64,000 nucleotides of DNA from NCBI GenBank assembly GCA_000091205.1, contig AP006499.2; one strand, written 5' to 3'. How positions within the stretch are numbered: position 1 is the first letter of the stretch; each line of letters opens with the position of its first letter. Origin of the DNA: Cyanidioschyzon merolae. Lineage: Eukaryota. Under the pieces are notes generated by a model. It did not search any database. It was not told the origin of the DNA and worked only from the letters and a program-made list of their open reading frames with translations. Shown here piece after piece: positions 1,848 to 29,007 of the stretch. A program made the position numbers and the translations under genes.

Positions 1848-4800
1848 TCACGTAGATGAGCGCATCGCAGGTGCGCCCTCACCTAGAAGTAGACGGAGCT
1901 GCTCAAAGTCGCTTGGATCGTTGACAAGCCTTTGCAGCTCCGTCTGAATTTGTTGGAGTTCTACGGAATGCTGCGGTTGGCGGGCAATCAGAGCAAGACG
2001 GTAGTATCGTTTCATCTGTTGGAAAATTAGCGAAAAGGTACGATCACCGACTCGAGCACGAATGCGTTCCATGATCGTTTTGCTGATCATTTGAGAGCCA
2101 CGTGCAAGAGCTGCATCCTTGTGCACAGCGGATACAGCTCGACGCTCGGCTTTCGCCTTCCAGACCAAGCCTGGTTCAGCGGTCGACGTCGACGAGACGG
2201 CCGTGGCGGCCACGTTGGTCTCGCGGAGTCTTTTCGACGACTGCGATGACAACGATAGCGAGCGCGCTCGCCGTGCATCGCATGTTCCCGTTTTTCCTGC
2301 CTGATCATACTCTTGGGACTGTCGCCCGATCATAGCTGCATGTTGCGCCATCGACTGGAGACGCGGTTGCTCGTCCTTGCTCGCCTGAAACGGATCAACA
2401 GGTGTGCGAACTGGCGGTACCGAGGTTGCGAGTTCCAACTGCGCCGCTGAGAGTTGGCGAATTCGCTCCGAGTGCCAGAAGCCGCACAGATTCGACATGA
2501 AGGTTCCAAAGCGCTCAAAAACTTGGATATTGTGCGTTGCTCGCGGATCCGCATCCGATGAAGCTGCACTCAGCCAGCGCGGGAGGTCTCTCAGATGAGC
2601 TCGAAACCGCTCGTCACAGAGGAGAATCGCTCCAAAGTCCTGCGCGTGACGAATCACCCGACCCATGGCCTGGTTTGCTGCTCGTAGGCATTGCTGCACG
2701 TACCAGAGGCGACCAGTGATCGTCTTGCCGTGATCCCTGAGGTGAAGCGCCTGACGTTCCAGATAATCGCGTTTCAGGATGATGCGCGGATCTGTTGTCG
2801 AAGGAAACGGAAGACCGACTAGAATCACCGTTCGTCCAAAGTCGTCAGCGAAATCGATCCCCTCGCCGGTGCGTCCTCGACAAACCGCGAAGAGGCATGC
2901 GTCGCGGCCGCTGGAAATCCATTGGCGGTAGGCGTCCACGGTTTGCCGAGAGGCGTCAGCGTCGCGAGGCTCCATAAAGATGCGCTTCACGGCATTGAGA
3001 CGATCCCAGACAGTCGCCTGGGTAGGCTGACGGCCACGATGAGCGGGATTCAACGGGTTGTTGTGATGAAAGGCGCCCGTCTGCCAGATTTCTACGAACC
3101 GAGCGAGCAGCACATAGGACGGAAAGAAGACGAGCATGCCACGCGGTGAGACGCGAGCGATATTGACCAGCGCGCTACCGAGATCCGAGATATACTCGCG
3201 ATTGTGTCGATTCGCATACGAGCTGTTCAGTTGAATATCCCGCGGCCCTTTGGTAAGGATCCCCGCGAATACCTGAGTTGCTGGATCGACGACATGGGAG
3301 TTCTGGAGACGAACTGGAAACGAAGCACCCATCTCCGATGCAACGGATTCTAGGGGGCTCAGCGTCCCTGAGGTCAACAGCACTGCATGTGCATTCGAGG
3401 TGGCTCGACGGAGCGCGAGACCCGGCCAAAGGCACCAGAATGAGAGCGTGTATCCTGTAGAGGAGCGATGTTCACGTGCGGATTGGTGTACGTACTTGCC
3501 AGAGGCAGCCTCTGCCGCTGCGGTGCCGCTCAAGGGTGGGCGCTGCTGCGACGGTGTTTGCCTCGGCCATCCGACACCATCGTACGCGGAGGGCGTCTTC
3601 AGACGACTGGGATTCATCGCCTGGTGGGTAGTACCAGCGGTGCCCTTCGCCGGCTCGTGCACACAGATCGCGAACGTGGACGCCGTCTCTGGTTTCCCGA
3701 ACAGACGAGATAGCTCCAGCACCTGACTGAGCTGCTCTAGCGCGTGCACCTGAGCGGCCCATGCTGCCGCTGACGTGCGCTGTGTAGTCCGTACTTGTCG
3801 GTGAAGCAGCCCCGTATAAGGATCACCCTGATCCCGTGTCTCTATGGCATCTGCTTCCGGCGCCTGTGAATGATCGAGCGCAGCAGCGGTCCCGTCAGGG
3901 AATTGTTGCCGCAATTGTGTGAGTGCACGGATCGCCGCTTCTACGCCGCGGAGCAGACGCTCATACGCTTCCTCGGTGAGCGTTGCGTCTTTCGAAGAGC
4001 ACTGCAAAAATGATTCAATAGCATGACCAGGAAGCACCACGCCATCAATCCCTTCAATCCGACGCCGCTGCCCAAAACACACCGTGCCTCCATTCTCTGC
4101 ACCAGGGCGCGCATGAGACGCCTTGGCGTCCGCCTGGGAAACCAGCGATATGCGCTCTTCAAGTGCGACCATGATTTCGAGCAGAGCGTGGAGATCAGAC
4201 GCGTGTAGCGCGGGCTCCGTGTTGGATCCTTCGCGCCCGTCGCGGTTCAGAAGACCCGAGGATAGCGCACTTGCCAATTGCTGAATAGCGCTGACGCACC
4301 TTTGACGCTCCGCAGCGGTAAAATCGAAGCTGAGACTATCACAGCAGATGCTCTCCAGATTGTGTGCCTCGTCGCCGATGATGATATCGCCTTCGACGCT
4401 GAGCCCCAGCGAACGCCGACACTTGCCATCGAACAAATAATTGTAGGGCATGAAGATGATTTCGGCCTCGGCAGATGCCTCACGACTGAGAAAATAAGGG
4501 CACATCGCATGCTGATGCCCGTACGCTGCCAAGTCCTCGAGGTCTCGTGGGCGCCGTCCCGGAAGCGCTAGCGTCGAGGTGCTGTCGACGGCGATGAAGA
4601 AAAAGTCATCGCCAACCTCCTTGAACTTTTGTTCGGCATTCAGATAAAAGCTGCAGCGTCGCTCTTTAGTCAACTGGGTACAACGAACGTTCTGCATTGT
4701 GGCGTTTTCGAGTCGAGATACAACCGGGTGGACGCAGAGGTGCTGGCGGGAGCCGAGGACCACGGTCCGAACGCTCGCACCATATGCGGTTCTGCTGAGC

Positions 4801-5276
4801 TCTCGCACTGCCTGCTTGATCTGACTATGCGTTCGCGTCAGGTAGATGATTCTGGGAACCGACTGCAGGGGCGTTGGGCCCGGCCCGTTTTCAGAGCTGG
4901 CCGCAGGTACGAGGCCACGAAGGCTGGCCTCCGGTGCCACGACTGCACCGGCTGCACCCTGCACCCCCTGGAGCAAGCGCTCACCATAATCGTTCTTCGG
5001 GCTGTCATCGGCTAGTGATTTGGATATGCGCTGAGTGCTAGCCTGACCTTGAACTTGGGCAACGAGCAACGAGCGCCAGGCTAGTGCCGCACACAAGAGT
5101 CCGAGTGTTTTGCCCGTGCCCGTCGGAGACTCCAAGAGCGCGTTTTGTCCGGTTTGCAGCGCTTCGATCACATGTTCCATATACCGAACTTGACATGGAT
5201 ATGGCTCGAAGGGAAATTCTACGGGGACTTGGCGAATAAACAGCGTTCGGCCCGGAGCGGGGCTACTGGAAGCCAT
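1848..5276 (-). CDS. RTEL1: Rad3/XPD-family Fe-S DNA helicase, RTEL1-like
   Basis: N-terminal signature VEFPFEPYPCQVRYMEHVIEALQTGQNALLESPTGTGKTLGLLCAALAWR (Walker A). The DEAH box is IIIGDEAHN. There are four Fe-S cysteines (LCVHP, VRCTQL, RRCSFY, AMCPYF). Helicase-C motifs are CRGRTGEGIDFADDFGRTVILVGLPFP. The likely start is M (MASSSPAPGRTLF) at 5276; the ORF track extends to 5393. Confidence 0.85.
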   Translation of the reverse strand: MASSSPAPGRTLFIRQVPVEFPFEPYPCQVRYMEHVIEALQTGQNALLESPTGTGKTLGLLCAALAWRSLLVAQVQGQASTQRISKSLADDSPKNDYGERLLQGVQGAAGAVVAPEASLRGLVPAASSENGPGPTPLQSVPRIIYLTRTHSQIKQAVRELSRTAYGASVRTVVLGSRQHLCVHPVVSRLENATMQNVRCTQLTKERRCSFYLNAEQKFKEVGDDFFFIAVDSTSTLALPGRRPRDLEDLAAYGHQHAMCPYFLSREASAEAEIIFMPYNYLFDGKCRRSLGLSVEGDIIIGDEAHNLESICCDSLSFDFTAAERQRCVSAIQQLASALSSGLLNRDGREGSNTEPALHASDLHALLEIMVALEERISLVSQADAKASHARPGAENGGTVCFGQRRRIEGIDGVVLPGHAIESFLQCSSKDATLTEEAYERLLRGVEAAIRALTQLRQQFPDGTAAALDHSQAPEADAIETRDQGDPYTGLLHRQVRTTQRTSAAAWAAQVHALEQLSQVLELSRLFGKPETASTFAICVHEPAKGTAGTTHQAMNPSRLKTPSAYDGVGWPRQTPSQQRPPLSGTAAAEAASGKYVHQSAREHRSSTGYTLSFWCLWPGLALRRATSNAHAVLLTSGTLSPLESVASEMGASFPVRLQNSHVVDPATQVFAGILTKGPRDIQLNSSYANRHNREYISDLGSALVNIARVSPRGMLVFFPSYVLLARFVEIWQTGAFHHNNPLNPAHRGRQPTQATVWDRLNAVKRIFMEPRDADASRQTVDAYRQWISSGRDACLFAVCRGRTGEGIDFADDFGRTVILVGLPFPSTTDPRIILKRDYLERQALHLRDHGKTITGRLWYVQQCLRAANQAMGRVIRHAQDFGAILLCDERFRAHLRDLPRWLSAASSDADPRATHNIQVFERFGTFMSNLCGFWHSERIRQLSAAQLELATSVPPVRTPVDPFQASKDEQPRLQSMAQHAAMIGRQSQEYDQAGKTGTCDARRARSLSLSSQSSKRLRETNVAATAVSSTSTAEPGLVWKAKAERRAVSAVHKDAALARGSQMISKTIMERIRARVGDRTFSLIFQQMKRYYRLALIARQPQHSVELQQIQTELQRLVNDPSDFEQLRLLLGEGAPAMRSST

Positions 5277-5699: not shown

Positions 5700-7376
5700 T
5701 CACCAGCACCACCACCGCCTATCACACGGACGATGCCGCCCGTGTACAGTAGTGGCGAGAAACCCGCCCTGGACAAAACGTCTCCAACCGAGGTGCAGAC
5801 GTCTCCTAGTCCTTTTGGACCGGCCATCTACTACTGCTTCCAACGTTGTCTCATATAGTTCGACTTTGAGAGGTTGTCCCAAAAAATTCTCTCTTGTCGA
5901 CTCTGGAGGTCTCGTCTCCAGCACCGCACATTTCCTTGTATTGATTGCGGCGTTAAAGTCTCGGTTCACGAATTCCATACGTTTCTCCCCGTTGGTAGTT
6001 GTGCTTACTAGTGCGCCTAGTCCTCGAACTTTCGCCCTCCTTTCCGTTTGCTCCTCCGTCAGCGCTCCGTACTTTTTTATATCCTCAGGGGTCCGTTGGC
6101 ACTTTTCCATCTCCACGCTCTGAAGTGTACACCCCAGTTCATGGTGTGTATGCAATGCTCGGAACTCATCTACAGGTATTGTAACAAAACACCTCGCGCA
6201 CTCCTTGGATGTTCTTGTCGTTGGAGCTGGCGTAGTTCCTTTTTGTATCTTCCGGCGCCCTGCTCCATATGCCACTACGAGCCTCTGATTTTCATCCTCT
6301 TTCAGGGCACTCAACTCATTGAAAAAGTCCGCGAACGCCCGCTGCCTCCCACCGTACAGATTCATCCGCAAACGAGCCCGCCGGGGCTTGGTATACTCCT
6401 CCCACAGCGCATCCCAATGGGCAACACGAACTTCCATGAATTTCCGAAAAGCTTCAAAGTCGGCTCTTCGGCTGGTCACCTCGCTCAAAGCCTCCAGGTG
6501 ATCCTTCATTCCTGCGTTCCACTTCTCAGTTTTCTTCCTCGCATTCATCATTCCCGATTCTCGACAGTATCTCGCTCTCGAGAACCTCAAAAGACGCATG
6601 TCTTTCTGACGGAAGTTGCCGTCAGCACCATCTTCCGCACGCTTCGGTGCTGCGATGGTGATGATATTTGTGTTTCGGGGGTCCGCGCCAACGACAAGGT
6701 CGTTATCCTGCACTTTCTGCGTCTCAAGACTCGCCTCCTTCTTTTCTTCATGCTTCATCGCGTCAACGACAAGCACGTTATCCTGCACTTTCTGCGTCGC
6801 ATGTTCCGCCTCCTTCTCATCTTCATACTTCGTCACGCCAACGACAAGGTCGTTATCCTCCATCTCCTGCATCGCAGGATCCCCCTCTTTGTTTTCTTCA
6901 TCCTTCGTCACGGGCGCAGCCGAGGGCCGAACTGGACGATCTTTCTTCAACCGCCGATAGTGTATACACAAGGCTACTCCATCGGTTTCGATCAACCCAG
7001 TGAACCACTTTTGCTCGCTCACTCTCAGACGTTTGAAATTGAAGATATTCTTCCAGTACGTCTCCCGGTTTTCGCCGGTGAAGTCCTCCCTGCTAACATT
7101 GAACTCCGGACTGATCTCCTTCATGATGCCGTAGAGGACGCCGGAATCGATAGTCACGAAATGTGACTTGATATTGCACATTGGAACGATGTTGAAGCGC
7201 TTCCCCATTAGGAAAGCCTTCCGTCTCTCCCACTCTTCATTTTTGTCCTCACTTAGCTCCACCTCTGCCTTGCGTTCGAGTTCTCGGTCCAGAAACACAA
7301 AATAGCGCAGGATGAGGCGATAGTATCTTTCCTTATCTTTTTTATCTCTGATATCTTGTCTGCTGGATTCGCCCAC
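5700..7376 (-). CDS. TnpB/Fanzor-like RNA-guided-endonuclease-family protein (RuvC-like nuclease with Zn-finger); probably the 3' exon/major part of a longer gene
   Basis: RuvC-I-like motif [17 protein letters not shown] Cys/His cluster follows: CARCF...HTHHELGC...EKCQ. The RuvC-III hallmark is [15 protein letters not shown] (D-x-NAA-x-N). The N-terminus is K/R-rich ([13 protein letters not shown]-like). Upstream ORFs on the same strand in alternating frames (7253-7633, 7618-7812, 7870-8181) suggest extra exons or frameshifts. Confidence 0.6.
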
Positions 7377-9346: not shown

Positions 9347-11611
9347 ATGGCGGCAGTTCGGACGGCAGGGGAACAGTTTGCTCTAGCATCCTGGGTTGCT
9401 GGCGTCCGGGCATTGTCGAGCACGAGCATCGCTTGCGGAGAGGGAGCTACTGGTGGCAATGGGGCCCAGCGCAATCCGCTACAGCGCTGCAGCGCCTCAA
9501 CCGCAGCACGGATGCGATTTGCAGGCACGTTGGACGCCACGAGTGATACATGCAACTCAGATAAGGTCCGTTTGGGAGTAGCTGATGCCAGGCACCTTGA
9601 GCTTGCGTTCGGAGTGCACGTTATGGAGACGAAAACTCTGGTCCGTTCAGCAGCTGCTGCAGGCTCAAGGTGCCCGCTGCAGCCCCTACTGCTGCAGACG
9701 CACTCTACGCGGTTCGAGCATAGATCTATGGCCCTAAATCCGCGCTGGATGATGCCGTTCACTGCGCCACGGAGTCGTAGTCGAAGCCTAGGATGCGCGC
9801 CTAGCCGTCGCTGTAGACTCGTTTGTGCAGGCGTGGATGACCCGATCGGGAAGAGAGCGCGTCAAGAGGACGCATTTAGTGCATCTATCCCGGGTTCACG
9901 ACTTGATGGCGAAAGGCAGCAATCAAGTTCGAATGTGTCGTCAGACGGCTCAGCGCTAGCATATACTGGCGCTTCGTCGGCAGTGGTGCTCGAAGGCGCG
10001 AATCCGCAGTTAGATGCGAAATATCGGCACTGGCGGGTGCGCGTCTTCTACTCCATCTTTCTCGGTTACGCTTTCTTCTACTTTACGCGTAACTCCTTCA
10101 CGTACACGGCACCGGCGCTACGAGCAGCACTGGGGCTTTCACTCGAACAGCTTGGCGTCATCATGTCCGTGTTCCCGTTAGCATACGGCTTCTCTAAGCT
10201 GTTTCTGGGTATCGCAGCGGATCGATTTTCCAGCCGTGTCTTCATGGCGCTTGGGATCTCGCTCACCGGTCTGGTGAATATTTTCTTTGGATTGCAGTCG
10301 AATGTATACGCGATGACAGCGCTCTGGTTCTTAAATGGGATTTTTCAAGGCAGTGGCGCAGCGCCATGTGCGAAGCTGCTCACTCGCTGGTACAGCAAAA
10401 ATGAGCGAGGAACCTGGTGGGGCCTCTGGAATACCTCCCACAATACTGGCGGATTCTTCATTCCATTGATTGTGGGGTACAGCGTCAAGAGGTTTGGGTG
10501 GCGGTATGGCATGATTGTGCCAGGTGTCTTGGGAATCCTCATGGGCATTTTCCTACTGAACAGGCTGCGTGATTGCCCTGAGGAGGTCGGCCTGCCGCCC
10601 ATTGAAATCTACCGCGATGATCACGCCGAAGATGTTCAGCGAAGGAGCACCGCTGCAACCCGTTCAACGAGTCCCAACGGTGCAGCACCGGGCTCGTCGT
10701 CGTCGCCTGCGAATGCGGAAACCCCAAAGACCGCGGGCAAATCAGCATCCGCACGGGAGCAGGCCGCAACGAACAAGTTCTTAGAAGTCATCGGTAATCC
10801 GTATGTGCTGCTGCTAGCGATCAGTTACTTTTTCATCTACTTTTGTCGCCAGGGCATCAGTTCATGGACCGTTATTTACCTGACGAGCATGGGCGTGCCG
10901 CCACAAGAAGCGGCTTTACGTGTCGGTAGCATGGAGATTGGCGGACTCTGTGGCTCCCTGGTCAGTGGTGCAGTCAGTGATCGGCTTGCTCGCGGCCGCC
11001 GCATTCCCGTCATTCTCTTCTGGATGCTGGGTGTGGTGGCGGCGCTCGTGGCCATGTGGCTCTCGCCCGCCTCTCGGCGCTACTTGTCCATGCTCTGCAT
11101 CTTCACGTTCGGCTTTTTCATTTACGGCCCACAGATGCTCGTCGGCCTGGCCGCAAGCGAAATGGTCAGCCCGGACTCGGTGTCGTCGACCATCGGGTTT
11201 CTCGGTTGGATCGCTTACATAGGCGCAGCAACCAGTGGATACCCGCTGACGCGCATTGTATCTGCGTTGGGCTGGGATGCGTATTTCGCAGCGCTTATCT
11301 GTTGTGCCTGTATTGCTATTCTCCTGCTTTTGCCGATGTGGCGAATTGGTGAACGTCAGGCCAAAGCGATCGCTCGCAAATGGCGAGCGCTTGTCGCGGG
11401 TGCAGCGGCGAACTTTCAAGCACTGCATGTGCAAGACGATGGCCAGTACGTCGACTGTGAAGCGTGTGCGGGAGCAGGCACACGCCTCCGCATGGAATGT
11501 GGCCCTGCAACACCCGCTCAAACAGTTTCCTGTAAGCTCGTGGAAACGCCGTGTGAAAAGTGCTTCGGTACCGGAAGCATTCGGCTTCCTGCGGAAGATG
11601 CAACCCGTTGA
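9347..11611 (+). CDS. MFS sugar-phosphate/glycerol-3-phosphate transporter (GlpT/UhpC/SLC37-like) with a long N-terminal extension and a C-terminal CxxCxGxG zinc-finger pair
   Basis: The core reads YRHWRVRVFYSIFLGYAFFYFTRNSFTYTAPAL...GVIMSVFPLAYGFSKLFLGIAADRFSSRVFMALGISLTGLVNIFFG, with about 12 TM helices. The C-terminal tail carries CEACAGAG and CEKCFGTG. The first ~220 aa are R/S/A-rich and non-conserved, so the start codon is uncertain. Confidence 0.8.
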   Translation: MAAVRTAGEQFALASWVAGVRALSSTSIACGEGATGGNGAQRNPLQRCSASTAARMRFAGTLDATSDTCNSDKVRLGVADARHLELAFGVHVMETKTLVRSAAAAGSRCPLQPLLLQTHSTRFEHRSMALNPRWMMPFTAPRSRSRSLGCAPSRRCRLVCAGVDDPIGKRARQEDAFSASIPGSRLDGERQQSSSNVSSDGSALAYTGASSAVVLEGANPQLDAKYRHWRVRVFYSIFLGYAFFYFTRNSFTYTAPALRAALGLSLEQLGVIMSVFPLAYGFSKLFLGIAADRFSSRVFMALGISLTGLVNIFFGLQSNVYAMTALWFLNGIFQGSGAAPCAKLLTRWYSKNERGTWWGLWNTSHNTGGFFIPLIVGYSVKRFGWRYGMIVPGVLGILMGIFLLNRLRDCPEEVGLPPIEIYRDDHAEDVQRRSTAATRSTSPNGAAPGSSSSPANAETPKTAGKSASAREQAATNKFLEVIGNPYVLLLAISYFFIYFCRQGISSWTVIYLTSMGVPPQEAALRVGSMEIGGLCGSLVSGAVSDRLARGRRIPVILFWMLGVVAALVAMWLSPASRRYLSMLCIFTFGFFIYGPQMLVGLAASEMVSPDSVSSTIGFLGWIAYIGAATSGYPLTRIVSALGWDAYFAALICCACIAILLLLPMWRIGERQAKAIARKWRALVAGAAANFQALHVQDDGQYVDCEACAGAGTRLRMECGPATPAQTVSCKLVETPCEKCFGTGSIRLPAEDATR

Positions 11612-26804: not shown

Positions 26805-26981
26805 CGGGTTTCCGCGGACGCACGCCGCTGGGACGCCATCCTAGACGGAAGCATTCTAGGTACCGCTGGCCCCAGCACGACCCGGGTGTGTGCGTAGGTG
26901 CATTCGACGTGTGTCGTACGAGGGTACAGAGCTTCAAGTATTTTGCTCGTTGAAGGATCTTTGTTCAGGGTACACAAAACG

Positions 26982-27518
26982 ATGCAAAGCATTGCCTGCT
27001 CTGGTACAGTGCAGTCACTGAGACGCCTGGTCTCCGTCGGTACGCTGGGGTGCGCACAGGCTTCATCACGACGCTGGCTCGCTAGCGGCAAGGACCTTCG
27101 CTTCGGCTCAGAGGCAAGAAACCTGATGCTTCGCGGTGTAGATCTGTTGGCAGACGCCGTCCAGACGACCCTGGGTCCCAAGGGAAGGAACGTGGTCATC
27201 GACATGAGCTACGGATCCCCGAAGATCACCAAGGACGGTGTCACCGTTGCACGAAACATCGAGTTCCGCGACAAGCACCTGAATTTGGGCGCACAGCTCG
27301 TGCGGGCGGTGGCCTCGGCAACGAATGATGCAGCAGGTGACGGAACTACGACGGCGACTGTACTGACACGAGCTATTTTCACGGAAGGTGTGAAAGCGGT
27401 AGCAGCGGGCCTAAATCCTATGGATCTCAAACGTGGCATTGATCTGGCCGTAGAGAAGGTGCTCGAAAAGCTCAAGGAATATTCGAAGGAGATCGGCGGC
27501 AAGAATGAAATCAAACAA
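26982..27518 (+). CDS. HSP60: mitochondrial chaperonin HSP60/CPN60, exon 1
   Basis: [18 protein letters not shown]... presequence, then [51 protein letters not shown]...[16 protein letters not shown]. The exon ends ...GGKNEIKQ and is followed by GTAAGT. Confidence 0.9.
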
Positions 27519-27783
27519 GTAAGTTTACGATGATGCAGCGGGCAACGACTCGACACGAACGATAGGATGGCCGGGGGGCGGCAGCCGTGCTGGGCCCCGC
27601 CGCCTCCCTCCGATGAAATCCTGAAGCGGCTCACTTGACCGCTCATGCAGTTTTGTCATAGTTACGCTGATCGTTCACGTCGACGCGCTGTCTACATGTG
27701 GGATACAAGGCCTTGTAGGGCCTGTACAGAGCAATCGAATCAGAACAAGCAAACTAACCGTGCGTGGGAGAAACGCCTTGTAG
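27519..27783 (+). other. HSP60: spliceosomal intron of HSP60 (GTAAGT ... TAG), 265 nt
   Basis: The donor caa|gtaagt is at 27519 and the acceptor ccttgtag|gtc ends at 27783. Splicing joins ...EIKQ to [20 protein letters not shown], restoring the canonical HSP60 sequence. Confidence 0.85.
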
Positions 27784-29007
27784 GTCGCAACAATCAGTGC
27801 AAATGGTGATGAGAAGATTGGCGAACTCATTGCAGAGGCTATGGACAAGGTTGGTCGCGAAGGAACCATTACGGTTGCGGACGGCAAGACCCTTACCGAT
27901 GAACTGGAAGTCGTCGAAGGCATGCGTTTTGATCGTGGCTACATCTCGCCGTACTTCATCACGGATGCCAAAAGTCAGAAATGCGAACTCGAGGATGTTC
28001 TGATTTTAACAGCGGAAAAGAAGGTGAGCAGCTTACAGTCCATTCTGCCGCTGCTGGAGCAGGTCGTCAAGGCACGACGTCCACTGCTCATCATTGCGGA
28101 AGACGTGGACTCCGAGGCGCTCGCTACCCTCGTTGTGAACAAGCTGCGCGGTGGCATTCAGGTCTGTGCAGTGAAGGCGCCAGGTTTTGGTGATAATCGC
28201 AAAGCGAACCTCATGGACATCGCTACGCTCACCGGTGGTGAAATGGTCTCCGATGAGCTCGATGTCAAGTTAGAGGACATGACCATTCATCGCCTCGGCA
28301 CCGCGAAGAAAGTCACTGTTAGCAAGGATGATACCATCATTCTTGACGGCGGCGGCGACAAGATGCAGGTCCAGAATCGCTGTGAGCAGATCCGTGCGGC
28401 AATCGAGAATGCGACCTCCGAGTATGAGAAAGAGAAACTTCAAGAGCGTTTAGCGAAACTTACCGGTGGCGTCGCCGTCATCAAGGTAGGTGGCGCTAGC
28501 GAAGTCGAGGTCGCTGAAAAGAAGGACCGCATTACGGACGCGCTGAATGCAACGCGTGCTGCCGTCGAGGAAGGTATCGTAGCTGGTGGCGGCACTGCGC
28601 TCCTGCGGGCAGGCAAAGATGCACTCGAGAACCTCCAAGGAAAAACCTTTGACCAGAACGTAGGTATCGATATTGTCCGCAAGGCGTTGCGAGTGCCCTG
28701 TATGGCGATCGCTCAAAACGCTGGCCATGAAGGCTCTGTCGTCGTCGAGAAAGTCCTCACGAGTTCCGATAAGAACCTCGGCTTCGACGCCGCTACCGGC
28801 AAGTATTGTGACCTCATCGCATCGGGTATCATTGATCCAACCAAGGTCGTGCGCACGGCGCTAGAGCGAGCGAGCAGTGTGGCAGGGCTCATGACCACCA
28901 CCGAGTGCATGGTTGTGGAACTCCCCAAGGAGGAAGCGAAAGCGTTTGGAGGTGCTGGCGGCGGCGGTGGCGGCATGGGTGGTATGGACAATATGGATAT
29001 GTATTGA
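27784..29007 (+). CDS. HSP60: mitochondrial chaperonin HSP60/CPN60, exon 2
   Basis: VATISANGD...GREGTITV...[12 protein letters not shown]...[13 protein letters not shown]...[13 protein letters not shown]...GIIDPTKV... with the C-terminal GGM repeat [19 protein letters not shown]. Confidence 0.9.

What the first reader, a model, noticed from the sequence alone, without database searches (positions are those of the whole stretch)
9347..11611. MFS sugar-phosphate transporter fused to a C-terminal CxxCxGxG zinc-finger pair
The GlpT/SLC37-like permease core runs through the last TM helix. It is followed by a ~70-aa tail containing CEACAGAG and CEKCFGTG. These are two copies of the DnaJ/BSD2-type CxxCxGxG zinc-finger motif, with another Cys pair between them. 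Such DnaJ-like Zn-finger modules act as small chaperone or disulfide-handling domains in plastids (BSD2, LQY1, PSA2). Their fusion to a transporter is not a described architecture. There is also a ~220-aa non-conserved R/S/A-rich N-terminal extension that may be a targeting sequence.
Basis: partly seen in the sequence, partly recalled or inferred. Interest (0 to 1): 0.55.

Follow-up and report, generated by a model that had tools for sequence, protein, structure and literature searches.

The report
Red-algal plastid sugar-phosphate transporter with zinc-finger tail
This is the known plastid-envelope UhpC-type sugar-phosphate transporter of the red alga Cyanidioschyzon merolae, and its small cysteine-rich DnaJ-type zinc-finger tail is real, conserved in all red-algal classes sampled, absent from the glaucophyte, Rhodelphis and bacterial relatives examined, and seemingly undescribed.

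Summary
ORF 9347..11611 (+) is exactly C. merolae 10D XP_005538184.1. It has a 12-TM MFS/OPA core, closest to UhpC, with the GlpT catalytic Arg/Lys/His residues conserved.

After TM12 come a linker and a 36-aa module, C-x2-C-x10-C-x10-C-x6-C-x2-C (aa 704-739). It holds the only two CxxCxGxG motifs in all six frames of the 64-kb window.

The fusion is not a gene-model artefact. All 50 distinct tails recovered from the red-algal homologues have identical Cys spacing. They cover Cyanidiophyceae, Bangiophyceae, Florideophyceae, Porphyridium, Rhodosorus and Bangiopsis, and include transcript-derived sequences. Constraint on the tail is close to that on the core.

The module is absent from Cyanophora, Gloeochaete, Rhodelphis and 67 bacterial UhpC. 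A profile search of 1.84 billion proteins found it only on red-algal UhpC.

Best guess, by inference only: a stroma-facing, tethered regulatory or interaction module, possibly thiol-switched.

The distal N-terminal extension is probably not coding. New variant of a known kind; moderate interest.

The parts
9347..11611 (+). Whole ORF (754 aa + stop) = C. merolae 10D XP_005538184.1, UhpC-type plastid sugar-phosphate transporter with C-terminal Zn-finger tail
9347..9733 (+). Distal N-terminal extension (aa 1-129): not conserved and near-neutral. Probably 5' leader rather than protein, at least for aa 1-50.
   Evidence: pN 0.575 vs pS 0.65 against Cyanidiococcus. No significant similarity. Metagenome strain variants have frame-shifted N-termini upstream of about aa 50, and 5 of 7 clean aa polymorphisms lie in aa 1-143.
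9734..9829 (+). Candidate plastid transit peptide (aa 130-161, MALNPRWMMPFTAPRSRSRSLGCAPSRRCRLVCA). It is basic and hydroxylated, has a Phe in an 'FTAP' context as in other red-algal homologues (e.g. P0052 'MAFTAP'), and ends in a V-x-A-type motif. The start codon is not determined.
   Evidence: Sequence. N-termini of homologues. Alignment of Cyanidiales N-termini. Inference only.
10004..10564 (+). MFS N-domain, TM1-6 (aa 220-406). Includes R248, K284 and H365, which correspond to GlpT R45, K80 and H165.
   Evidence: AF2 model. Alignment to 1pw4. Invariant columns.
10565..10744 (+). Central TM6-TM7 loop (aa 407-466), with a Cyanidiales-specific Ser/Ala-rich low-complexity insert of low pLDDT
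10745..11338 (+). MFS C-domain, TM7-12 (aa 467-664). Includes R501, which corresponds to GlpT R269.
11342..11455 (+). Linker (aa 666-703). Helical and conserved within Cyanidiales. In other red algae it is a P/A/V-rich tether of 21-65 aa.
11456..11563 (+). Cys module (aa 704-739), C-x2-C-x10-C-x10-C-x6-C-x2-C: a DnaJ-CR-like beta-hairpin
11456..11479 (+). CxxCxGxG motif 1 (CEACAGAG; C704, C707): first zinc knuckle
11498..11533 (+). Invariant Cys pair C718...C729 closing the loop GPATPAQTVS at the hairpin tip. It occupies the position of DnaJ zinc centre 2 and is a candidate disulfide/dithiol switch or half metal site.
   Evidence: Invariant columns C23, G24, A26, S33, C34. The two Cys are cross-strand neighbours in both AF2 models.
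11552..11575 (+). CxxCxGxG motif 2 (CEKCFGTG; C736, C739): second zinc knuckle

Best explanation
The gene encodes the red-algal UhpC-type organophosphate (probably hexose-phosphate)/phosphate antiporter of the plastid inner envelope.

Its 12-TM OPA-family core is intact and presumably active. Behind TM12, a flexible tether carries a 36-residue DnaJ-cysteine-rich-type beta-hairpin. In this hairpin, the two CxxCxGxG knuckles (C704/C707 and C736/C739) together bind one structural metal ion, most likely Zn.

The hairpin tip is where DnaJ has its second zinc. Here it instead carries an invariant pair of neighbouring cysteines (C718/C729), which close an almost invariant loop, GPATPxQxLS.

Both termini lie on the positive-inside face, so the module should sit in the stroma. 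I propose that it is a tethered regulatory or protein-binding module acquired in the red-algal stem lineage. The most likely specific mechanism is thiol-based: the C718-C729 pair cycles between dithiol and disulfide, or the Zn site is released on oxidation. That change would alter how the tip loop binds either the transporter's own stromal face or a stromal partner, coupling sugar-phosphate exchange to the plastid's light/redox state.

Shown here: the architecture, the conservation, the fold class and the lineage distribution. Taken from the literature: envelope localisation. Inferred: metal binding, stromal orientation, and the regulatory or redox role.
For: Identity and core:
- The ORF is an exact match to XP_005538184.1.
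- MFS_1 scores E 2e-50. UhpC is the best NCBIfam family, 419 bits against 281 for GlpT.
- The AF2 model has pLDDT 87. Foldseek gives G6PT1 at E 2e-20 and GlpT 1pw4.
- The equivalents of GlpT R45/K80/H165/R269 are invariant.

The tail is real and constrained:
- Spacing is identical in 50/50 tails, and the linker varies from 21 to 65 aa.
- pN is 0.088 in the module, against 0.03-0.06 in the core and 0.45-0.58 in the N-extension.
- No polymorphism occurs in the linker or tail among 15 strain variants.
- Transcript-derived orthologues carry the fusion.
- The tail is also encoded in frame in the G. sulphuraria genome.

Fold:
- The tail model has pLDDT 85, with strands 6-8, 17-24, 33-40 and 49-51.
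- Profile search against PDB sequences gives the DnaJ CR domain 1exk at E 1e-4 and anti-TRAP at E 0.003.
- PF00684 is the top Pfam match for 24/26 tails.

Cys pair: C23 and C34 are invariant and cross-strand adjacent, and the loop residues G24, A26, S33, P28 and Q30 are 90% or more conserved.

Lineage specificity:
- The tail is absent from Cyanophora P0172/P0173, Gloeochaete P0171, Rhodelphis P0170 and 67 bacterial UhpC.
- A profile search of 1.84e9 proteins finds the module only on red-algal UhpC fragments.

Topology: 22 K/R lie in loops on the N/C-terminal side against 1 on the other side.

Localisation: Karkar et al. 2015, as cited in PMC5948301.

Precedent, from established knowledge: chloroplast enzymes are regulated by C-terminal extensions carrying a thioredoxin-targeted Cys pair (GapB CTE, NADP-MDH). 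Plastid DnaJ-like Zn-finger proteins act through protein binding and thiol chemistry (PMC5818400; PMC11449065).
Against: - No experiment or computation here shows metal binding, redox activity, orientation in the envelope, or any effect on transport.
- I could not read model coordinates or PAE, so docking of the tail onto the core is untested.
- A search for residues specific to tail-bearing transporters gave no stromal-face signal. There were 16 such positions, nearly all shared by the two tail-less red-algal homologues.
- Two red-algal-type homologues (P0047, P0052) seem to lack the tail, so it is not indispensable for the carrier.
- The known plastid DnaJ-like Zn-finger proteins are assembly factors acting in trans, not regulators in cis.
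- The substrate of red-algal UhpC has not been validated (PMC5948301).
Confidence: 0.4

Rival explanations
1. Trans-acting docking or chaperone module. The tethered Zn hairpin constitutively recruits a stromal client to the envelope, without redox switching and without gating the carrier. Candidate clients are an enzyme of hexose-phosphate or glucan metabolism, an Hsp70-system component, or an assembly intermediate. This would resemble how BSD2, OR, PSA2, LQY1 and FIP bind specific client proteins.
Against: No partner is known. The module has lost DnaJ zinc centre 2. From established knowledge, that centre is the one needed for the DnaK hand-over. Eukaryotic gene neighbourhood gives no hint.
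Confidence: 0.25
2. Biogenesis, stability or oligomerisation element. The Zn hairpin folds after import and serves as a structural cap. It could fix topology, protect against envelope proteases, or dimerise the carrier. In the dimer case, the two 2-Cys tips of two protomers would share a second metal ion.
For: The C718/C729 pair is half of a Cys4 site, located where DnaJ binds its second zinc. The related SLC37A4 is seen as dimers in the PDB (9w1p, 9w1n). Anti-TRAP-type CxxCxGxG modules match the tail; that they oligomerise is established knowledge, not tested here.
Against: Glaucophyte, Rhodelphis and bacterial homologues, and apparently two red-algal ones, fold and presumably insert without it. 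A flexible tether of 21-65 aa is an odd design for a structural cap.
Confidence: 0.2
3. The C-terminus faces the intermembrane space or cytosol. There the module would interact with host-side factors, such as cytosolic floridean-starch metabolism. Alternatively, it binds iron like a rubredoxin knuckle pair and has an electron-transfer or iron-sensing role.
For: Orientation in the envelope was not tested. The second knuckle in most red algae is 'CPxCxG', and about 28 residues separate the knuckles. From memory, both features resemble rubredoxin.
Confidence: 0.1
4. Artefact: the tail is a chance Cys-rich read-through, a separate gene or exon wrongly joined, or an annotation error.
For: None found. 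The only apparent support is that the public G. sulphuraria model P0046 lacks the tail.
Against: The ORF is continuous. The motif is unique in the window. Spacing is conserved in 50/50 tails, including transcriptome sequences. Non-synonymous divergence is low. The G. sulphuraria genome itself encodes TM12 and the tail in the same frame, contiguous with the annotated part, so that public model is truncated.
Confidence: 0.02

Closest known systems
Bacterial UhpC / chlamydial hexose-phosphate transporter; E. coli GlpT and UhpT (OPA family of the MFS)
   Same: The 12-TM fold is the same. Identity to Chlamydiae/Verrucomicrobia UhpC is 42-45%. The TM1/TM7 arginines and the Lys/His of the GlpT site are conserved. 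UhpC is the best NCBIfam family.
   Different: None of the 67 bacterial homologues examined has any Cys-rich tail. The red-algal protein has an N-terminal targeting extension and scores below the curated UhpC cut-off (419 against 564 bits).
Glaucophyte UhpC (Cyanophora paradoxa tig00021108_g18332 and tig00001056_g6623; Gloeochaete) and Rhodelphis marinus homologue
   Same: These are orthologous plastid-type UhpC transporters with N-terminal extensions. They are the 'primordial carbon exporter' discussed in PMC6704402 and PMC4374161.
   Different: They end 10-20 residues after TM12, or in Rhodelphis with about 60 unrelated residues from a transcript ORF that runs into the poly(A) tail, and have no Zn module. 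The tail is therefore a red-algal innovation.
Human G6PT1/SLC37A4 (e.g. 9ll0, 9w1r)
   Same: It is the closest solved structure to the core (Foldseek E 2e-20, TM-score 0.88-0.92 on the target). It is an organellar glucose-6-phosphate/Pi exchanger.
   Different: Identity is 25%. It lies in the ER membrane and has no C-terminal Zn domain.
DnaJ type-I cysteine-rich domain (E. coli DnaJ 1exk; DnaJA2 7zhs; Ydj1 1nlt)
   Different: DnaJ has four repeats and two zinc centres. Here there are two repeats, hence one centre, and a 2-Cys pair replaces centre 2. There is no J-domain. The Pfam score is 16.7 bits against a 32.7 cut-off.
Plastid DnaJ-like zinc-finger proteins (BSD2 6ekb, ZnJ2, PSA2/ZNJ1, LQY1, OR, FIP, EMB2737)
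   Different: They are stand-alone or single-pass-anchored proteins, usually with four motifs. None is fused to a polytopic solute carrier. No sequence-level relationship to any of them was detected beyond the motif.
Anti-TRAP (3lcz, 2bx9)
   Same: It is a small module in which two CxxCxGxG motifs build a single Zn(Cys)4 centre. The profile hit is E 0.003.
   Different: It is a bacterial stand-alone regulator of TRAP. The motifs are adjacent rather than separated by a 28-residue hairpin. It is below the Pfam threshold.
Thioredoxin-regulated C-terminal extensions of chloroplast enzymes (GapB CTE, NADP-MDH C-terminus); functional analogy from established knowledge
   Same: Each is a C-terminal appendage with a conserved Cys pair closing a short loop on a stromal-side protein.
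   Different: There is no sequence or fold relationship. Those extensions are on soluble enzymes and lack a zinc site. The analogy is untested here.

Membership tests
MFS, organophosphate:Pi antiporter (OPA) family | 12-TM MFS fold with two 6-helix halves | tested here: met
   Pfam MFS_1 E 2.3e-50. The AF2 model has 12 TM helices and pLDDT 87. Foldseek hits G6PT1 and GlpT at E about 1e-20.
MFS, organophosphate:Pi antiporter (OPA) family | Substrate-site arginines in TM1 and TM7, plus Lys and His (GlpT R45, R269, K80, H165) | tested here: met
   R248, R501, K284 and H365 align to these residues in 1pw4. They are invariant in 15 homologues.
UhpC subfamily (NCBIfam NF008661) | Score above the curated subfamily cut-off | tested here: not met
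   The score is 419 bits against a cut-off of 564. UhpC is still the best-scoring family, ahead of PgtP-type 349, GlpT 281 and UhpT 195. The protein is therefore UhpC-like, not a certified bacterial UhpC.
UhpC subfamily (NCBIfam NF008661) | Glucose-6-phosphate/Pi exchange or sensing activity | not testable with these tools
   The function of red-algal UhpC 'remains to be validated' (PMC5948301).
Plastid-envelope UhpC of Archaeplastida | Orthology with glaucophyte and red-algal UhpC, and an N-terminal targeting extension | tested here: met
   Red-algal homologues score highest, and Cyanophora, Gloeochaete and Rhodelphis homologues rank among the best non-red hits, level with the top bacterial UhpC. 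Localisation of the C. merolae protein to the chloroplast envelope is reported by Karkar et al. 2015, via PMC5948301. I could not read that paper.
DnaJ central cysteine-rich domain (Pfam PF00684) | Four CxxCxGxG repeats forming two zinc centres | tested here: not met
   There are only two repeats, plus two single invariant Cys.
DnaJ central cysteine-rich domain (Pfam PF00684) | Score above the Pfam gathering threshold | tested here: not met
   The score is 16.7 bits against 32.7. 24 of 26 tails hit at E<=0.1, with a best E of 7.8e-5.
DnaJ central cysteine-rich domain (Pfam PF00684) | Extended beta-hairpin fold with zinc knuckles at its base | tested here: met
DnaJ central cysteine-rich domain (Pfam PF00684) | Zinc binding | not testable with these tools
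   This needs metal analysis of recombinant tail.
Plastid stand-alone DnaJ-like Zn-finger chaperones (BSD2/ZnJ2/PSA2/LQY1 type) | A small soluble or single-pass protein whose main domain is the Zn finger | tested here: not met
   Here the module is the C-terminal 5% of a 12-TM carrier. No stand-alone relative was found among 1.84e9 proteins, apart from one weak phage-contig hit, P0145, at E 4e-4.

The most novel reading that the evidence does not exclude
The tail is a stromal thiol/zinc switch that gates the red-algal UhpC carrier. The C718-C729 disulfide or Zn release would be driven by thioredoxin or oxidants, and would dock or undock the invariant GPATPxQ loop on the transporter. That would make it the first solute carrier regulated in cis by a DnaJ-type zinc finger. 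It would also be a red-alga-specific solution for coupling photosynthate export across the plastid envelope to light.
Probability: 0.2. Interest if true: 0.7.

Novelty: new variant of a known kind. Interest (0 to 1): 0.5.

Why it matters
UhpC is the transporter at the centre of the debate on how the first plastid was plugged into host carbon metabolism (PMC4374161, PMC4916741, PMC6704402). Yet its function in red algae is still unvalidated (PMC5948301).

A strictly conserved appended zinc-finger module is present in every red-algal class sampled. It is absent from glaucophytes, Rhodelphis and bacteria. This points to a red-lineage-specific layer of control or partnership on that carrier.

The module also gives a clean molecular signature for red-algal UhpC. 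It offers a compact set of testable mutations (six Cys and one loop) in a genetically tractable organism.

The work also corrects database records:
- The GenBank product name 'glycerol-3-phosphate transporter' is probably wrong at subfamily level.
- The annotated N-terminus is probably over-extended.
- The public G. sulphuraria model lacks TM12 and the tail, which may explain why the feature has gone unnoticed.

Tried and rejected
- **Karkar et al. 2015 (PNAS):** the paper could not be read by DOI or PMC id. The localisation claim is therefore second-hand.
- **afdb50 fold library:** it was unavailable. Only PDB was searched for the tail fold.
- **Stand-alone origin of the module:** the only non-UhpC protein resembling the whole module is P0145 (66 aa, E 4e-4). 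It sits among small phage-type ORFs and lacks the second tip Cys, so I treated it as unrelated.
- **Docking-surface search:** 16 positions are conserved in tail-bearing transporters but differ in glaucophytes and bacteria. Nearly all are shared by the two tail-less red-algal homologues, and they show no stromal-face pattern. The only tail-correlated site is R549. The result is inconclusive.
- **N-terminal extension:** BLASTP of C. merolae against Cyanidiococcus gives only E 0.15, over aa 170-201. A start at M145/M146 ('MMPFTAP') is attractive because of the red-algal Phe motif. It would leave only about 16 residues before the putative V-x-A cleavage motif, so the start remains undetermined.
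- **dN/dS:** synonymous sites between C. merolae and Cyanidiococcus are saturated (pS 0.65-0.87). Only pN is informative.
- **Gene neighbourhood:** neighbours are ordinary nuclear genes with no functional link.
- **Coordinates and PAE:** those of the AF2 models are not exposed. Cys-Cys distances and tail-core contacts could not be measured, and adjacency of C718/C729 is deduced from strand register only.
- **Green algae:** green-algal UhpC homologues mentioned in the literature did not appear in the listed hits, so their C-termini were not inspected directly.
Full report
**1. Observation**

The window carries an ATG-initiated ORF at 9347..11611 on the + strand, 754 aa long. Its product is identical to Cyanidioschyzon merolae 10D XP_005538184.1/BAM82148.1, annotated 'glycerol-3-phosphate transporter', on a 1.23-Mb chromosome. 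The window is therefore red-algal nuclear DNA of about 55% GC. Its neighbours are ordinary nuclear genes: a DEAD_2 helicase, a pentapeptide protein, FUSC_2, DUF547, Cpn60, Dopey, TyrRS and RPN2.

Pfam MFS_1 covers aa 237-629 at E 2.3e-50. CEACAGAG (nt 11456) and CEKCFGTG (nt 11552) are the only two CxxCxGxG matches in all six frames of the 64-kb window. From the protein's composition, 0.005 matches are expected. The six C-terminal cysteines are C704, C707, C718, C729, C736 and C739.

**2. The transporter core**

The closest relatives are red-algal proteins. These include Cyanidiococcus (80% identity), Galdieria, Pyropia, Gracilariopsis, Gracilaria, Agarophyton, Porphyridium, Rhodosorus, Bangiopsis and Timspurckia. 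They are followed by UhpC of Chlamydiae and Verrucomicrobia at about 43% identity.

NCBIfam ranks UhpC first at 419 bits, below its 564-bit cut-off, ahead of GlpT at 281 and UhpT at 195. An AF2 model of aa 215-754 (pLDDT 87) shows 12 TM helices. Its best structural matches are human G6PT1/SLC37A4 (E 2e-20) and E. coli GlpT.

The GlpT substrate-site residues R45, K80, H165 and R269 correspond to R248, K284, H365 and R501. These are invariant across the family. The core is thus an intact OPA-family organophosphate/phosphate exchanger of the UhpC type.

This is the protein family discussed as the 'primordial' plastid carbon exporter (PMC6704402; PMC4374161; PMC4916741). A review states that Karkar et al. 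2015 localised the C. merolae and G. sulphuraria UhpC proteins to the chloroplast envelope, and that their transport function remains to be validated (PMC5948301). I could not open the primary paper.

**3. The tail is real, conserved and lineage-specific**

In 50 of 50 distinct tails recovered from red-algal homologues, the module has exactly the spacing C-x2-C-x10-C-x10-C-x6-C-x2-C. It sits 21-65 residues (median 46) behind the conserved P-M-W motif that ends TM12, and is followed by 9-25 further residues.

The linker is P/A/V-rich and variable. Within Cyanidiales it is conserved and predicted helical. Beyond the six Cys, G24, A26 and S33 are invariant, and G16, P28, Q30, E38, G46 and G48 are 90% or more conserved. 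The consensus is CxxCAGTGxVMRLECGPATPxQxLSCKYxExxCPxCxGxGY.

Against Cyanidiococcus, non-synonymous divergence varies strongly by region. Synonymous sites are saturated.

| Region | pN |
|---|---|
| Cys module | 0.088 |
| Linker | 0.10 |
| Transporter core | 0.03-0.06 |
| N-terminal extension | 0.45-0.58 |

Fifteen near-identical strain variants from metagenomes show no change in the linker or tail. Several tail-bearing sequences come from transcriptomes: MMETSP Bangiopsis, Porphyridium aerugineum, Timspurckia and Rhodosorus. The fusion therefore exists on mRNA.

The public G. sulphuraria model (P0046, 510 aa) seems to lack the tail. However, the genome continues in the same frame through TM12 and a perfect tail to a stop codon (L005). 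That model is truncated.

The following homologues have no such tail:
- Cyanophora paradoxa (two genes), Gloeochaete wittrockiana and Rhodelphis marinus.
- All 67 bacterial homologues examined.

An HMM of the tail was searched against 1.84 billion representative proteins. It returned only five strong hits (E<=1e-10). One is the full-length red-algal UhpC P0008, and the other four are C-terminal pieces of red-algal UhpC. Everything weaker is generic CxxCxGxG-repeat protein.

Two red-algal-type homologues (P0047, P0052) end shortly after TM12. Nothing tail-like lies within 1.1-1.4 kb downstream, so occasional tail-less copies exist. The simplest reading is a single acquisition in the red-algal stem lineage, after the split from Rhodelphis.

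**4. What the module is**

The sequence evidence is as follows:
- Pfam's DnaJ_CXXCXGXG is the commonest and best match: 24 of 26 tails at E<=0.1, with a best E of 7.8e-5. It is always below the gathering score (16.7 against 32.7 bits for the window's tail).
- The tail profile hits the E. coli DnaJ cysteine-rich domain (1exk, E 1e-4) and anti-TRAP (E 0.003) among PDB sequences. These hits come through the individual knuckles.

By analogy with DnaJ, where repeats 1 and 4 build zinc centre 1, the two outer knuckles should form one Zn(Cys)4 site at the base of the hairpin. The tip is where DnaJ's repeats 2 and 3 build zinc centre 2. Here it retains only C718 and C729. By strand register in both models, these two are direct cross-strand neighbours closing the ten-residue loop GPATPAQTVS.

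The module is therefore a reduced DnaJ-CR-like hairpin. It works like that family's fold, but it fails two of its membership criteria: four repeats, and the Pfam threshold. Metal identity is untested.

**5. Orientation and the N-terminus**

Loops on the side of the N- and C-termini carry 22 Lys/Arg, against 1 on the opposite side. In GlpT both termini are cytoplasmic (established knowledge; 1pw4). With import through an N-terminal transit peptide and an even number of helices, the C-terminal module most likely faces the stroma. This is inference.

The annotated N-terminal 214 residues are not conserved. Several observations suggest that at least the first 50 codons or so are not translated:
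- Residues 1-144 evolve almost neutrally (pN 0.575 against pS 0.65).
- Some strain variants are frame-shifted upstream of about residue 50.
- Five of seven clean amino-acid polymorphisms lie in residues 1-143.

The proximal part, 'MALNPRWMMPFTAPRSRSRSLGCAPSRRCRLVCA', looks like a red-algal transit peptide. It is basic and carries a Phe in an 'FTAP' context, as at the N-termini of many homologues. It ends in a V-x-A-type motif that aligns among Cyanidiales. The true start codon remains open.

**6. Mechanism**

The following are shown:
- An intact UhpC-type carrier.
- A flexibly tethered module under strong purifying selection.
- A DnaJ-CR fold class for that module.
- An invariant 2-Cys-closed tip loop.
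- Restriction of the module to red algae.

The following are inferred:
- One structural zinc.
- Stromal exposure.
- A regulatory or interaction function.

My preferred specific model is a thiol switch. C718/C729 would cycle between dithiol and disulfide, or zinc would be lost on oxidation, changing how the tip loop binds the carrier's stromal face or a stromal partner. This has precedent in C-terminal Cys-pair extensions of chloroplast enzymes (established knowledge). It also fits the thiol chemistry reported for plastid DnaJ-like zinc-finger proteins (PMC5818400; PMC11449065).

I give this 0.4. The rivals are:
- A constitutive trans-docking or chaperone-like module (0.25).
- A structural, oligomerisation or biogenesis element, possibly sharing a metal between two protomers (0.2).
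- The opposite orientation, or iron binding (0.1).
- An artefact (0.02).

An attempt to find a tail-correlated surface on the core was inconclusive.

**7. Novelty**

The transporter is known and its localisation is published. The tail is not mentioned in any paper I could search. There were no hits for UhpC + zinc finger + algae and none among the UhpC + Cyanidioschyzon papers. A survey of the chloroplast DnaJ-like zinc-finger family does not mention transporters or red algae.

I rate it a new variant of a known kind. It is a polytopic solute carrier with a cis-fused, reduced DnaJ-type zinc hairpin, conserved as a red-algal signature. Interest is moderate (0.5). It would surprise plastid-transport specialists mildly, and it offers a sharply testable handle on an unvalidated but much-discussed transporter. 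The mechanism remains speculative.

Noticed in passing
window 5700..7376 (-): A 558-aa ORF lies in a region of strongly skewed composition (GC skew -0.21) with a 75-bp x3 tandem repeat at 6686-6912. It has no Pfam hit in the local library. Its C-terminal part contains '...[14 protein letters not shown]...', which from memory resembles the RuvC-III motif of TnpB/Fanzor. The only PDB sequence hit at E<=1 is Spizellomyces punctatus Fanzor 8gkh, and it is weak (E 0.15). It belongs to a large multi-copy family (95 clusters at 35-98% identity), almost all from JGI metagenomes. Many members carry precomputed Pfam PF26935, and none comes from NCBI protein sets. It may be an unannotated transposon-borne, Fanzor-like gene next to the transporter.
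   Followed up: partly
window 26898..27533 (+) and 27841..29007 (+): A mitochondrial-type Cpn60/GroEL is split into two ORFs about 300 nt apart. The N-terminal part reads '...[22 protein letters not shown]...' and the C-terminal part matches Cpn60_TCP1 profile positions 173-487. This is probably one of the rare spliceosomal introns of this almost intron-less genome.
   Followed up: no
L005 (G. sulphuraria KB454508.1), about nt 4575-4835, same frame as the upstream exon: The public G. sulphuraria protein model P0046 (510 aa) stops at '...LSSLMG'. The genomic reading frame continues without interruption through TM12 ('CGLIAILLLVPMWRLGMG') and a complete Zn tail ('CEFCAGTGTIIRLSCGPATPAQAISCQYVERACPYCGGNG') to a stop codon. 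The database model is truncated by about 95 residues.
   Followed up: yes
L003 (P0052) and L004 (P0047): Two red-algal-type UhpC homologues, with typical 'MAFTAP' and 'MSAFVSS' N-termini, end 15-40 residues after TM12. No tail-like coding sequence lies within 1.1-1.4 kb downstream. They are apparently genuine tail-less copies, from unidentified organisms (SRR23272329, SRR19164831).
   Followed up: partly
L001 3185-3385 (P0145): A 66-aa protein on a 67-kb contig full of small phage-like ORFs has 'CETCDGAGRVECGPAQ...YRCDDCGGTGYV'. It is the only stand-alone sequence resembling the whole module (E 4e-4). It lacks the second tip Cys, so this is probably convergence on the DnaJ-type knuckle.
   Followed up: partly
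window 9347..9500 (5' end of the annotated CDS): Near-identical metagenome variants of the gene have frame-shifted or alternative N-termini upstream of about residue 50. JGI gene calls use a GTG 11 codons further upstream. The open frame extends 54 codons 5' of the annotated ATG. The annotated start is unlikely to be the true one.
   Followed up: partly
window 9347..11611, database annotation: The GenBank/UniProt product name 'glycerol-3-phosphate transporter' does not fit the family scores. UhpC scores 419 bits against 281 for GlpT. The literature treats the protein as a UhpC-type hexose-phosphate transporter.
   Followed up: yes
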